A DNA stretch of 44,376 bases, from positions 1 to 44,376 of the IMG/VR virus record IMGVR_UViG_2541047881_000004; one strand, given 5' to 3'. A program made the position numbers and the translations under genes. This DNA is from a virus (Duplodnaviria; Heunggongvirae; Uroviricota; Caudoviricetes). Below the pieces are notes generated by a model. That model was given only the letters and a program-made list of their open reading frames with translations, had not been told where the DNA came from and did no database searches. Positions 39,219 to 40,502 of the stretch are shown here, in pieces (position 1 is the first letter of the stretch; the number at the start of each line of letters is the position of its first letter).

Positions 39219-39374
39219 ATGAACACGTTCAGCATAATCGCGATACCTTTTTTTGCCCTTTCAGTGGTTCTGTTGACTCTTGGCGCTACCAGGAAGAACC
39301 AAGCCAGCTTCATCGTTGGCGGCGTGTTTATGGCGTCATGCGTGGTTAATGCCATTATCGGCATGTCTCTTTGA
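39219..39374 (+). CDS. Small hydrophobic protein (51 aa, two predicted transmembrane segments) just downstream of cI
   Basis: Hand-translated MNTFSIIAIPFFALSVVLLTLGATRKNQASFIVGGVFMASCVVNAIIGMSL; GAGGT RBS 4 nt upstream of the ATG. Confidence 0.5.
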   Translation: MNTFSIIAIPFFALSVVLLTLGATRKNQASFIVGGVFMASCVVNAIIGMSL

Positions 39375-39566
39375 GCGCTATGAGATCAGGCATCCTCGTT
39401 ACTTTGTCATGTGTGACAGCCTGGTATGCACTCTGCGAGCTTTGATGTGGTTTACCACTTTAATAGTCACCGTATCACTAAACTGATTAGCTTTACTCAT
39501 ACTCTTGTGGATTCGCTATTTCTGATGTCAATGCAAAAAAATACTAAGGAAACAAAAAGGATACTT

Positions 39567-39833
39567 ATGTCAGATAACACTATTAAAATCATACCTCAGC
39601 ACATGACCGCCACATCAGTTCTTATTACGCCTGATCGTGCTGAAACAATCATTACTTTTTACCGCCATGAATTTGAGCATCACATGCAGTCTGATGAGCA
39701 AGGAAAGAATAGCTTCCAAGTAAAAGTTGAGTTGACCCCTAACATGTCAGTCTCAATGAGCCCGGATCAAGCTGTTGCATTAGTAAAATCATTACAGGTA
39801 GCTCTCAGGGATAATGGGCTATGGAAAGACTGA
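39567..39833 (+). CDS. Hypothetical protein A of the cI-linked cassette (88 aa, soluble, His-rich)
   Basis: ATG 39567 with AAGGA RBS 5 nt upstream; MSDNTIKIIPQHMTATSVLITPDRAETIITFYRHEFEHHMQ...; no family recognised. Confidence 0.6.
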   Translation: MSDNTIKIIPQHMTATSVLITPDRAETIITFYRHEFEHHMQSDEQGKNSFQVKVELTPNMSVSMSPDQAVALVKSLQVALRDNGLWKD

Positions 39834-40471
39834 AGCCAGTTTCTTCAGTTCAACCTACCTCAGGAACAACATCATCAGTTCTTCCAAGTATTATAGTTAG
39901 TGCAACCCTAGCAGCGACAACCGTTTCTCCTTATGGGGATCCATCTCAGTACCAAAGTATTGGTATTGATGCTAAGGTATCAAATAGAGTTTCATACGCC
40001 ATGGACGAAACGGGTTTGCGCCCAAGTAAGGAAGATGTAGCGATGAAGAGTGATACCCTGGAGGTAAGCGTGAGCGGAATGTCCAGAGAAGAACTTGACG
40101 CAAAGCTTTCACAAAACAAATCAGAGGTAGAGTCTATTGCTGCGGAAATGCGTCGCGAATCAGCTGACTTTAAAACCTATTATACTCAGCAATTTTCTTC
40201 TATTGAGAGAGGTATTGCTGAAATTAAAGGTGAAATCGGCGGTTTGAAAACGGGACTTACAACGACTCAGTGGGCGATGGCCGTTGGCTTGACTTTAGTT
40301 ACTGTGATTCTGTCTGGCGTGATGTTAGCCTCAAGTTGGATTATCTCCGGCAATGACAAGTCACCATCAGTAACCAGCCCGGCTCCAATTATAATACAGG
40401 TACCGACACAGCAACCATTAACGAGCGCTCCAACTAACCAATCGTCATCACAACAAGCTCCTAAGCAATAA
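39821..40471 (+). CDS. Hypothetical protein B of the cI-linked cassette (216 aa, coiled coil, C-terminal membrane anchor)
   Basis: Start overlaps the stop of protein A (ATGGAAAGACTGA); S/T-rich N-terminus, predicted coiled coil (…SREELDAKLSQNKSEVESIAAEMRRESADF…), TM helix WAMAVGLTLVTVILSGVMLASSWII, P/S/T/Q-rich tail; no family recognised. Confidence 0.65.
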   Translation: MERLKPVSSVQPTSGTTSSVLPSIIVSATLAATTVSPYGDPSQYQSIGIDAKVSNRVSYAMDETGLRPSKEDVAMKSDTLEVSVSGMSREELDAKLSQNKSEVESIAAEMRRESADFKTYYTQQFSSIERGIAEIKGEIGGLKTGLTTTQWAMAVGLTLVTVILSGVMLASSWIISGNDKSPSVTSPAPIIIQVPTQQPLTSAPTNQSSSQQAPKQ

Positions 40472-40475
40472 ATAA

Positions 40476-40502
40476 ACCCGGCCACCGCGCCGGGTTTTCT
40501 TT
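40476..40502 (+). terminator. Intrinsic terminator ending the cI operon (analogue of lambda tImm)
   Basis: ACCCGGC-CACCGC-GCCGGGT followed by TTTTCTTT immediately after the stop of protein B. Confidence 0.75.

What the first reader, a model, noticed from the sequence alone, without database searches (positions are those of the whole stretch)
39219..40502. Unrecognised three-gene cassette co-transcribed with cI in the rexAB position: candidate exclusion or defence system
Directly downstream of the cI-like repressor and on the same strand there are three tightly linked ORFs of no family I can recognise. (i) 39219-39374: 51 aa, strong RBS, two hydrophobic segments. (ii) 39567-39833: 88 aa, soluble, His-rich (FYRHEFEHHMQ). 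(iii) 39821-40471: 216 aa, start overlapping the stop of (ii), S/T-rich N-terminus, predicted coiled coil, one C-terminal TM helix and a P/S/T/Q-rich tail. The unit ends in a strong intrinsic terminator (40476-40502) just before the pL-like promoter, so in a lysogen it would be expressed with cI from pRM. In lambda this slot holds rexA/rexB, a lysogen-expressed membrane-associated abortive-infection system, and it is a known hotspot for exclusion genes in lambdoid phages. Gene sizes and sequences here do not resemble RexA/RexB.
Basis: partly seen in the sequence, partly recalled or inferred. Interest (0 to 1): 0.85.

Follow-up and report, generated by a model that had tools for sequence, protein, structure and literature searches.

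The report
Prophage gp49–gp48 cassette in rexAB slot
Right after the phage repressor gene, exactly where phage lambda keeps its rexAB exclusion genes, this prophage carries the never-characterised HK97 genes 49 and 48 plus a tiny membrane-protein gene; they belong to a small family of paired genes found almost only beside prophage repressors, which makes them a good but unproven candidate for a new phage-exclusion system.

Summary
They are not unknown DNA. ORFs ii and iii are phage HK97 genes 49 and 48 (99.6% nt identity), "hypothetical" since 2000. ORF i is a 51-aa, two-TM protein that RefSeq annotates.

The 1.28-kb cargo (39193-40474) lies between the end of cI and a homologue of lambda's post-rexB terminator, so it fills the rexAB slot at nucleotide level. 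It has no detectable homology to RexA/RexB, PADLOC, Pfam, NCBIfam or PDB entries.

The conserved unit is two genes:
- a small, fold-variable soluble protein (gp49 type, Zn-ribbon type, all-beta type);
- translationally coupled to it, a tail-anchored protein with a variable disordered head, a conserved coiled coil, one C-terminal TM helix and a conserved periplasmic PIIIQVP motif.

An exhaustive HMM search finds about 200 family representatives. Every context examined lies next to a lysogeny repressor, either cI-type or a P22 immI-like region. The head region co-varies with the partner type.

Best reading (about 0.45): a lysogen-expressed, membrane-anchored two-component exclusion or abortive-infection module that works like RexAB but is unrelated to it. 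No function has been tested. ORF i is an accessory of the E. coli/Citrobacter version only.

The parts
38446..39141 (+). cI-type repressor (HTH + S24 peptidase). Start at ATG 38446 or 38482. The C-terminal domain from 38731 is shared with the HK97, mEp234 and HK542 cI genes.
   Evidence: Pfam Peptidase_S24 1.1e-28 and HTH_3 1.9e-10. Homology breakpoints. The gene call in the 100%-identical locus L024 gives 231 aa.
39142..39192 (+). Conserved left junction after the cI stop. This is the last backbone sequence before the cargo.
   Evidence: mEp234 and HK106 share the window sequence up to 39192 and then diverge.
39219..39374 (+). ORF i: 51-aa small membrane protein with two TM segments and a TRKNQ loop. 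It is an accessory of the E. coli/Citrobacter/Shigella version of the cassette.
   Evidence: RBS and hydrophobicity. PGAP WP_001091427.1. The exact sequence occurs on 772 contigs. Variants are conservative. It was linked to gp49/gp48 in all 8 contexts, with at least 4 different repressors. It is absent from the Klebsiella and Kosakonia loci.
39375..39566 (+). 192-nt spacer between ORF i and gene 49. No promoter-like site, no Rfam hit and no unusual RNA structure.
   Evidence: Fold z-score +1.23.
39567..39833 (+). HK97 gene 49 homologue: 88-aa soluble protein, predicted beta-beta-beta-beta-alpha. This is the variable 'partner' of the pair.
39821..40471 (+). HK97 gene 48 homologue: 216-aa tail-anchored coiled-coil membrane protein. 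This is the conserved component of the pair.
   Evidence: HK97 Gp48. PHROG 5820, unknown function, 9.6e-69. AF2 secondary structure. Family of 201 representatives.
39821..40081 (+). gp48 residues 1-87: S/T-rich, disordered, lineage-variable 'head'. It includes the hydrophobic stretch LPSIIVSATLAATTV, which is shared only with homologues that have a gp49-type partner.
   Evidence: pLDDT <50 for residues 1-83. Alignment A3. Head clusters never cross partner clusters.
40082..40240 (+). gp48 residues 88-140: conserved coiled-coil core. It begins with the cap motif SREELDAKL and continues with NKSEVESIAAEMRRESADF.
   Evidence: Invariant E91, A94, K100 and E102 in A3. Helix 89-139. Sub-threshold CCDC90-like/DUF1640 match in 8 of 12 members.
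40271..40345 (+). gp48 residues 151-175: the single C-terminal transmembrane helix (WAMAVGLTLVTVILSGVMLASSWII).
   Evidence: AF2 helix 147-177. In the family, 130 of 153 members have one strong hydrophobic 19-mer about 35 residues from the C-terminus, and only 2 have a second one.
40385..40405 (+). gp48 residues 189-195: PIIIQVP, a conserved short motif in the predicted periplasmic P/Q-rich tail.
   Evidence: Conserved from E. coli to distant metagenomic members. A strict pattern is present in 47 of 130 family tails.
40476..40502 (.). Bidirectional intrinsic terminator, homologous to the lambda terminator just downstream of rexB. It marks the right boundary of the cargo.
   Evidence: Sequence, scanner and alignment with lambda, mEp234, HK542 and a Klebsiella phage. 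Other E. coli prophages without the cassette share it (H56-H59).
40503..40600 (+). Backbone spacer nearly identical to the lambda sequence between the rexB terminator and OL.
40686..40714 (+). pL-like promoter candidate, TTGACC-17-TACTAT.
   Evidence: This is a consensus match only.
40904..41176 (+). N antiterminator. The ORF may start further upstream.
   Evidence: Pfam N_peptide 3.4e-32.

Best explanation
SHOWN. The feature is a 1.28-kb mobile cargo module (39193-40474) in the cI-to-N accessory slot of a lambdoid prophage. Its core is the HK97 gene 49 / gene 48 pair. This pair belongs to an uncharacterised family of two-gene modules confined to lysogeny-control loci of temperate phages of Enterobacterales. 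Each module encodes (1) a small soluble protein whose fold differs between lineages and (2) a translationally coupled, tail-anchored membrane protein with a variable disordered N-terminal head, a conserved coiled-coil stalk, one C-terminal TM helix and a conserved periplasmic P-I-I-I-Q-V-P motif.

INFERRED.
- The module is transcribed with cI from pRM in the lysogen.
- gp48 sits N-in/C-out in the inner membrane as a coiled-coil oligomer, probably a trimer.
- gp49 binds the variable head of gp48.
- Together they act as a prophage-expressed phage-exclusion (abortive-infection type) system that works like RexA/RexB without being related to it. The variable cytoplasmic part (gp49 plus head) would be the specificity or sensor element that detects an infecting phage. 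The conserved stalk, TM helix and periplasmic motif would be the effector that perturbs the membrane or an envelope-associated step.
- The 51-aa two-TM ORF is an accessory membrane component, or a separate small accessory gene, found only in the E. coli/Citrobacter version.
For: Identity and mobility:
- 99.6-99.9% nt identity to HK97, HK225 and PDP110P1 and annotation as Gp49/Gp48.
- The same cargo lies behind at least 4 unrelated repressors.
- Breakpoints at ~39117-39192 and 40475-40506.

Slot:
- The flanks are homologous to lambda's flanks of rexAB.
- The slot holds HicAB in mEp234.
- In HK542/HK244, which carry lambda-like cI, PRM and PL, it holds a distant gp48-like pair.
- The literature describes the slot as an accessory and abortive-infection hotspot driven by the repressor promoter (PMC7067206; PMC8585504).

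Expression: there is no promoter-like site, convincing terminator or structured RNA between cI and gene 49.

Real genes: pN is far below a saturated pS.

Family:
- 201 representatives at E<=1e-3, of which 106 at <=1e-10, all with the same layout.

Pairing:
- 18 of 18 IMG/VR clusters have a 92-165-aa upstream ORF ending between -39 and +17 nt of the gp48-like start.
- The same holds in all NCBI, metagenome and reference-genome loci examined.

Context:
- 12 of 18 IMG/VR clusters are directly downstream of a cI-type repressor.
- The other 6 lie in P22 immI-like regions with Arc/Mnt-type repressors and an antirepressor.
- All 3 reference-genome loci are directly downstream of a cI-type repressor.

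Modularity:
- The partners fall into at least 3 unrelated families plus singletons.
- gp48 head clusters never span two partner families.
- This is the pattern expected if the head and the partner interact and set specificity while the stalk, TM helix and tail are the constant working part.

Topology:
- There is a single TM helix about 35 residues from the C-terminus and no signal peptide.
- There are more K/R residues on the N-terminal flank, 1.88 against 1.12.
Against: - No experiment or published phenotype links gp48/gp49 to phage resistance (literature). HK97's known exclusion function is gp15 (PMC3594210).
- There is no similarity to any PADLOC model, so nothing ties it to defence except position and architecture.
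- gp49 is only 88 aa and has no recognisable ligand-, nucleic-acid- or enzyme-type fold.
- A single TM helix per chain is a weak basis for a pore.
- The most conserved extracytoplasmic element, PIIIQVP, could equally point to binding of a periplasmic host or phage component, which would favour entry exclusion.
- The slot also carries non-defence cargo in principle.
- Co-transcription with cI is inferred, not observed.
- The gp48 model has low confidence (pLDDT 51).
- The trimer idea rests on a motif resemblance and sub-threshold Pfam hits.
Confidence: 0.45

Rival explanations
1. Superinfection exclusion at the DNA-entry step, like HK97 gp15 or P22 SieA. gp48 sits in the inner membrane, and its conserved periplasmic PIIIQVP tail binds a host periplasmic or inner-membrane factor, or the incoming tape-measure or ejection proteins. 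This blocks genome injection without killing the cell. gp49 would be an assembly or stability factor.
For: - gp48 is a predicted inner-membrane protein expressed from a lysogeny locus.
- The short periplasmic motif is among the best-conserved parts of the family.
- Six family clusters sit in P22 immI-like regions beside injection and tail genes, roughly where P22 keeps sieA. That P22 keeps sieA there is from my own knowledge of the P22 map, not tested.
- Known exclusion proteins gp15 and SieA are small inner-membrane proteins of lysogens (PMC3594210; PMC10461980).
Against: - About 70% of the protein is cytoplasmic, namely the head and the stalk.
- The variable part is the cytoplasmic head and partner, not the periplasmic tail. 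A protein that recognises diverse incoming phage proteins in the periplasm would be expected to vary there.
- HK97 already has gp15 for this job.
- A dedicated, fold-variable cytoplasmic partner has no obvious role in entry exclusion.
Confidence: 0.2
2. Not a phage-exclusion device. Instead it is a lysogeny-associated regulatory or lysogenic-conversion module. For example, it could be a membrane tether that sequesters or presents a factor to tune the lysis-lysogeny switch or induction, as reported for RexA/RexB. Alternatively it could change host envelope physiology, stress tolerance or fitness.
For: - The family is strictly tied to repressor loci of two different kinds, cI-type and Mnt/Arc-type. 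This would also fit a role in the switch itself.
- RexA/RexB have been reported to assist the lysogenic-to-lytic transition (bioRxiv 10.1101/2021.04.19.439022, listed).
- A tail-anchored coiled-coil protein with a disordered head looks more like a scaffold or tether than like an enzyme or channel.
- Sub-threshold similarity to the CCDC90/MCUR1 scaffold family.
Against: - The cargo is swapped between otherwise identical immunity backbones. It is replaced by HicAB, rexAB or nothing, so it is not needed for the switch.
- It is present in only about 1% of complete E. coli genomes.
- Rapid partner-fold turnover is typical of conflict systems rather than housekeeping regulation.
Confidence: 0.2
3. 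A toxin-antitoxin-like addiction or stabilisation pair. gp48 would be a membrane-acting toxin and gp49 its upstream, translationally coupled antidote. The pair would stabilise the prophage, with or without a secondary abortive-infection effect.
For: - The gene order is small gene first, then larger gene, with a 4-17-nt overlap. This is typical of type II TA operons.
- The same slot carries HicAB in mEp234 and HK106.
- The partner and the head co-vary, as cognate antitoxin-toxin pairs do.
Against: - No toxin or antitoxin domain is detected.
- No DNA-binding antitoxin fold is detected.
- The conserved part is a coiled coil plus one TM helix, unlike known type II toxins.
- Nothing shows that gp48 is toxic.
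Confidence: 0.1

Closest known systems
Lambda RexA/RexB (cI-linked abortive-infection system)
   Same: - It occupies the identical genomic slot. The left flank is the end of cI and the right flank is the homologous terminator and spacer before OL/pL.
- It has the same strand and presumably the same pRM transcript.
- It shares the logic of a soluble protein plus a membrane protein.
- It is exchanged as cargo between immunity backbones.
   Different: - No sequence or profile similarity: hhalign probability 0.03% for gp49 against RexA and 0.1% for gp48 against RexB.
- Sizes differ: 88 and 216 aa here, against 279 and 144 aa.
- The gp48 family almost always has a single hydrophobic segment near the C-terminus, whereas RexB is a polytopic membrane protein (my own knowledge, not tested here).
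- The soluble component here is tiny and varies in fold.
- The function here is untested.
HK97 gp15 and P22 SieA (prophage inner-membrane superinfection-exclusion proteins)
   Same: They are small inner-membrane proteins expressed from prophages of the same phage group. HK97 itself encodes gp15 (PMC3594210; PMC10461980).
   Different: - They are single-gene systems with no homology to gp48.
- They sit in different genome positions, the tail operon or immI.
- gp48 is mostly cytoplasmic and always comes with a partner gene.
CCDC90-like / DUF1640 family (PF07798; MCUR1, CCDC90B and prokaryotic homologues)
   Same: - The layout is a head, then a coiled-coil stalk, then a single C-terminal TM anchor.
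- There are weak, consistent Pfam matches over the stalk and TM region in 8 of 12 family members, best E 0.0016.
- The stalk begins with a [hydrophobic]-S/T-R/K-x-E-L motif. This resembles the beta-layer cap ([aliphatic]-A-T-K-[polar]-[D/E]) described for DUF1640 (PMC4786415).
   Different: - All matches are far below the gathering score (12.6 bits against 33.5 for gp48).
- The head here is disordered.
- DUF1640 has no known paired partner gene or repressor linkage.
- Trimer formation here is not shown.
BstA (repressor-linked prophage abortive-infection protein of BTP1 and relatives)
   Same: It lies downstream of the prophage repressor, presumably shares the repressor's promoter, and keeps this synteny across genera (PMC8585504).
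   Different: [quoted passage not shown] There is no homology, and gp48 is membrane-anchored.
HicAB cargo in mEp234/HK106
   Same: It occupies exactly the same cargo slot behind an HK97-type cI and before the same terminator. It is a two-gene overlapping operon.
   Different: HicAB is a recognisable type II TA. gp49/gp48 have no TA domains.

Membership tests
RexAB (lambda) | Homology of the soluble component to RexA | tested here: not met
   hhalign of the gp49 family profile against lambda RexA gives probability 0.03%. No match of any kind reached E<=1 in Pfam.
RexAB (lambda) | Homology of the membrane component to RexB | tested here: not met
   hhalign of the gp48 family profile against lambda RexB gives probability 0.1%. 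The gp48 family almost always has one hydrophobic segment, not several.
RexAB (lambda) | Location between cI and the terminator upstream of OL/pL, on the cI strand | tested here: met
   The flanks align with lambda's rexAB flanks.
RexAB (lambda) | Expressed in lysogens from pRM with cI; excludes T4 rII and other phages by membrane depolarisation | not testable with these tools
   Only indirect evidence: there is no promoter or terminator between cI and gene 49. This needs RNA-seq and plating assays.
Known anti-phage defence systems (PADLOC-DB v2.0.0) | Match of any component to a defence-system HMM | tested here: not met
   The three window proteins match 0 families at E<=1. The 12 family members give only scattered single hits at E>=0.003.
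CCDC90-like / DUF1640 (PF07798) | Score at or above the Pfam gathering threshold | tested here: not met
   gp48 scores 12.6 bits against a cut-off of 33.5. Eight of 12 members match, but the best E is 0.0016.
CCDC90-like / DUF1640 (PF07798) | Coiled-coil stalk followed by a single C-terminal TM anchor | tested here: met
   AF2 helix 89-139 and TM helix 147-177. Family statistics.
CCDC90-like / DUF1640 (PF07798) | Beta-layer motif at the start of the stalk, implying a trimer | tested here: inconclusive
   The motif M/I/F-S/T-R/K-x-E-L is conserved and resembles the published consensus (PMC4786415). No multimer model or structure was available.
Type II toxin-antitoxin operon | Small upstream antidote gene overlapping a downstream toxin gene, with recognisable toxin and antitoxin domains | tested here: inconclusive
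   The gene organisation is met (13-nt overlap; 18 of 18 clusters). No TA domain is found in Pfam or NCBIfam.
Moron (as described in PMC3594210) | Extra DNA relative to related phages, with its own promoter and terminator and deviating GC content | tested here: inconclusive
   The extra, exchangeable cargo is confirmed. No promoter of its own was found. The terminator belongs to the backbone. GC is 0.39-0.45 in the cargo against 0.44-0.49 in cI, a modest difference.
Inner-membrane superinfection-exclusion proteins (gp15 / SieA type) | Prophage-expressed inner-membrane protein that blocks genome entry | not testable with these tools
   Membrane anchoring is predicted. Blocking of entry needs experiments.

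The most novel reading that the evidence does not exclude
gp49/gp48 represent a previously unrecognised class of modular prophage immunity system. An oligomeric (probably trimeric) tail-anchored coiled-coil 'stalk' protein couples two ends. One end is an exchangeable cytoplasmic sensor, made of the variable head plus a fold-variable small partner. The other end is a conserved transmembrane and periplasmic effector end carrying the PIIIQVP motif. The system would abort or exclude infection by a mechanism unrelated to RexAB or any catalogued defence system, and it would spread as cargo between the repressor loci (cI-type and immI-type) of enterobacterial temperate phages.
Probability: 0.35. Interest if true: 0.8.

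Novelty: new variant of a known kind. Interest (0 to 1): 0.55.

Why it matters
HK97 is a model phage, yet two of the few genes it should express as a prophage have had no function for 25 years. If the pair is an exclusion system, it would be a third, unrelated solution for the repressor-linked slot, after RexAB and BstA. Its architecture, a tail-anchored coiled-coil protein plus a swappable mini-partner, is not in any defence catalogue. The roughly 200-member family gives natural variants with three or more partner folds, which can be used to dissect how specificity is encoded. The conserved flanks (the end of cI and the post-rexB terminator homologue) also show how such cargo is exchanged by recombination between immunity modules, even across genera. 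Everything needed for a test already exists: HK97 and HK225 lysogens, recombineering and phage panels.

Tried and rejected
- Known-family assignment. Pfam, PHROGs, PADLOC and NCBIfam gave nothing above threshold for the three proteins, or "unknown function". PDB sequence profiles gave nothing for the gp49 family and only coiled-coil noise for the gp48 family.
- HExxH string in gp49 (HEFEH). I rejected it as a zincin motif. It lies in a predicted beta-strand, and the second His is Tyr in several homologues.
- Truncated gp48 allele. The 156-aa gene calls in some genomes are only alternative start choices, because the DNA is identical.
- Internal promoter or regulatory RNA in the 192-nt ORF i-gene 49 spacer. 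None was found.
- Antisense ORF 39155-39364, annotated in HK225. It shares third-codon positions with ORF i, so synonymous counts cannot separate the two. The amino-acid changes are conservative only in the ORF i frame, and PGAP calls ORF i.
- Literature. None found a functional statement on HK97 gp48/gp49, HK542/HK244 ORFs or similar tail-anchored prophage proteins. Juhala 2000, Degnan 2007 and Cumby 2012 are not held.
- Reference-genome scan. Only 3 loci were found because the peptide pattern was narrow. All 3 confirmed the context.
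Full report
**1. What is in the sequence**

The interval 38.4-41.2 kb of the window is a lambdoid immunity region read in the pL direction.

- It contains a cI-type repressor (Pfam Peptidase_S24 1.1e-28, HTH_3 1.9e-10) and, further on, an N antiterminator (N_peptide 3.4e-32).
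- Cro-, CII-, O- and DnaB-like genes diverge on the other strand.
- The RBS of ORF i, the 13-nt overlap between ORFs ii and iii and the GC-rich hairpin with its T-run at 40476-40502 can all be read directly.
- The scanner picks the hairpin up with its longer stem on the minus strand, so it is bidirectional.

**2. What it is by identity**

- The 1361 bases from 39150 to 40510 are 99.6% identical to phage HK97. There the two larger ORFs are annotated Gp49 and Gp48, between cI (Gp50) and N (Gp47).
- They are 99.8-99.9% identical to HK225 and Lambdavirus PDP110P1.
- The cassette is in 52 of 5426 complete E. coli genomes, always chromosomal.
- A 2.9-kb stretch around it is 100% identical to an E. 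coli assembly (L024).
- The rest of the window is a mosaic of lambda-like virion genes and an HK97-like early region.
- HK97 does not annotate the 51-aa ORF, but PGAP calls it (WP_001091427.1). Its exact sequence occurs on 772 contigs. Variants in Citrobacter, Enterobacter and Shigella differ only by conservative changes.

So the genes are not new. What is missing is any function.

- PHROGs 26809 and 5820 are labelled "unknown function".
- Pfam, NCBIfam and PADLOC give nothing above threshold for the three proteins. PDB sequence profiles give nothing for the gp49 family and only coiled-coil noise for the gp48 family.
- My literature searches found no statement on these proteins.

**3. The slot**

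Pairwise breakpoints and a multiple alignment with lambda define the cargo as about 39193-40474.

- To the left, the cI C-terminal domain and 51 bases after its stop are shared with HK97, mEp234 and HK542.
- To the right, the terminator and the following ~115 bases are nearly identical to the lambda sequence between the end of rexB and OL.
- The same terminator follows the HicAB cargo of mEp234 and the cargo of HK542. It even follows the diverged homologues in two Klebsiella phages.

The claim "in the rexAB position" therefore holds at nucleotide level. The conserved flanks look like the recombination handles by which cargo is exchanged.

- The same cargo is found behind at least four unrelated repressors.
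- The same HK97-type backbone carries HicAB instead in mEp234.
- The literature calls the cI-N interval a hotspot for accessory loci. It names rexAB and bstA as abortive-infection systems driven from the repressor promoter (PMC7067206; PMC8585504).
- I found no sigma-70-like site, no convincing terminator and no unusual RNA structure between cI and gene 49. Read-through from pRM is the simplest expectation, but it is an inference.
- The best pL-like match is at 40686-40714.

**4. The proteins**

gp49 (88 aa):
- It folds with fair confidence (pLDDT 79.6) into four strands and a C-terminal helix.

gp48 (216 aa) has the following parts:
- a disordered S/T-rich head (residues 1-83);
- a long helix (89-139) that opens with the conserved SREELDAKL...NKxEV...A.EMR motif;
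- a single TM helix (about 151-175);
- a P/Q/S/T-rich tail that contains PIIIQVP.

Both genes are under purifying selection, with pN 0.24-0.54 against saturated pS.

**5. The family**

- Word-indexed searches found only 11 protein clusters for gp48 and 6 for gp49. A profile search raised gp49 to 20.
- An exhaustive HMM search of 1.84 billion representatives with the gp48 profile found 201 proteins at E<=1e-3 and 106 at <=1e-10. Nearly all are 110-370 aa and have the same layout.
- Of the 153 best, 130 have one strong hydrophobic 19-mer a median of 35 residues from the C-terminus. Only 2 have a second one.
- K/R residues are enriched on the N-terminal flank (1.88 against 1.12). The tails are 19% Pro and 15% Gln.
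- The number of 11-residue repeats in the stalk varies, while the start of the stalk, the TM helix and the PxIIQVP motif are the conserved parts.
- Eight of 12 members give sub-threshold matches to Pfam CCDC90-like/DUF1640, best E 0.0016. That family is built as head, coiled-coil stalk and C-terminal anchor.
- The stalk-opening motif resembles the beta-layer cap described for DUF1640 (PMC4786415). This suggests a trimer but does not show one.

**6. The unit is a pair, and the partner is exchangeable**

- In every locus examined, a small + strand ORF (73-165 aa) ends within a few bases of the gp48-like start, usually overlapping it. This holds for NCBI genomes, phage records, metagenomic contigs, 18 of 18 IMG/VR clusters and 3 of 3 reference genomes.
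- These partners are not one family. Twelve of 27 are gp49-type, 5 are Zn-ribbon proteins, 4 are the 144-aa all-beta HK542 type and 6 are singletons. None has a Pfam domain.
- The variable heads of the gp48-like proteins cluster strictly within partner types. This argues that head and partner interact and evolve together.
- The 51-aa ORF is not part of this conserved unit. It is absent from the Klebsiella, Kosakonia, Yersinia and HK542 versions, although it always travels with the E. coli-type cargo.

**7. Context**

- Twelve of 18 IMG/VR clusters, all three reference-genome loci and all the named phages place the pair directly downstream of a cI-type repressor on the same strand.
- The other six clusters, and the Xenorhabdus locus, place it in P22 immI-like regions with Arc/Mnt-type repressors and an antirepressor. 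In one case it lies directly downstream of the Mnt-like gene.
- HK542 and HK244, which have lambda-like cI, PRM and PL, carry a distant member of the pair precisely where lambda has rexAB.

**8. Interpretation**

Shown:
- The cassette is a mobile, selected, repressor-linked two-gene module with a constant membrane-anchored component and an exchangeable cytoplasmic component.

Inferred:
- It is expressed in the lysogen.
- gp48 is oriented N-in/C-out.
- gp48 forms an oligomeric stalk.
- gp49 contacts the head of gp48.
- The module has an anti-phage role.

I favour an abortive-infection or exclusion system that works like RexAB, for two reasons:
(i) The slot and both kinds of host locus are the places where temperate phages keep lysogen-expressed conflict genes.
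(ii) The split between a variable part and a conserved part follows the sensor/effector pattern of defence systems. The variation lies on the cytoplasmic side, which fits intracellular sensing better than recognition of incoming proteins in the periplasm.

I give this about 0.45 overall. The specific version, in which a membrane effector is triggered by a cytoplasmic sensor, gets about 0.3.

Rivals:
- entry-blocking superinfection exclusion through the conserved periplasmic motif (0.2);
- a regulatory or lysogenic-conversion role (0.2);
- a TA-like stabilisation pair (0.1).

Membership in RexAB, PADLOC systems and DUF1640 was tested and not met.

**9. Verdict**

The defence role remains a well-motivated hypothesis that can be tested directly in HK97 or HK225 lysogens.

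Noticed in passing
window 38446-39141 (breakpoint at 38731): The cI gene is a hybrid relative to HK97. Only the C-terminal (S24) domain from 38731 onward matches HK97, mEp234 and HK542 cI (95-98%). The N-terminal DNA-binding domain, cro and the operators differ, so the immunity specificity is not HK97's. A Buttiauxella prophage repressor has a similar N-terminus (L104).
   Followed up: partly
window 40475-40600; L101 (lambda) 560-840 minus strand; L010 3526-3549; L011 3600-3629: The terminator after the cargo and about 115 nt beyond it are almost identical to lambda's sequence between rexB and OL. The 24-nt hairpin is 100% conserved even behind Klebsiella-phage homologues whose proteins are only 30-45% identical. 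It looks like a conserved recombination handle for cargo exchange.
   Followed up: partly
L013 (mEp234) 2856-3986; L009 (HK542) 1986-3037: The same slot holds HicA/HicB plus a hypothetical gene in mEp234 and HK106. In HK542 and HK244, which are annotated with lambda-like cI, PRM and PL, it holds a 144-aa all-beta protein plus a distant gp48 homologue.
   Followed up: yes
L003 4746-5691; L016 4214-4588: Yersinia-type prophages carry one or two extra genes between cI and the pair. These encode ~125-135-aa proteins with an N-terminal TM helix and a conserved R-(R/K)-K-E-(F/W)-N motif. They are another uncharacterised repressor-linked membrane-protein family.
   Followed up: no
window 39201-39354: Among 32 near-identical copies of the cargo (6 haplotypes), 10 of the 14 variable sites fall in or just before the 51-aa ORF and none falls in gene 48. 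This suggests that the ORF i segment has a separate recombination history.
   Followed up: partly
window 39567-39833 and 39821-40471: Public gene calls are inconsistent. gp49 is called as 88, 102, 128 or 135 aa, and gp48 as 216 or 156 aa, on identical DNA. Homologue comparison supports 88 and 216 aa. HK225 also annotates two minus-strand ORFs over ORF i and the spacer, and these are probably spurious.
   Followed up: yes
window 39666-39680 (gp49 residues 34-38): gp49 contains the string HEFEH (HExxH). It lies in a predicted beta-strand, and the second His is Tyr in several Klebsiella homologues, so it is unlikely to be a zincin site. The invariant H34-E35 pair remains unexplained.
   Followed up: partly
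L012 4762-5385; L025 5192-5815: Related prophages carry an Nmad5-family putative nucleotide-modification protein just downstream of N. This is another variable accessory position in the pL operon.
   Followed up: no
L006 6934-7143; L023 4283-4507; L026 4287-4496; L002 4349-4555: Several relatives have a small (~69-74 aa) minus-strand gene directly after the gp48 terminator; the Klebsiella one is Pfam DUF2767. The window lacks it.
   Followed up: no
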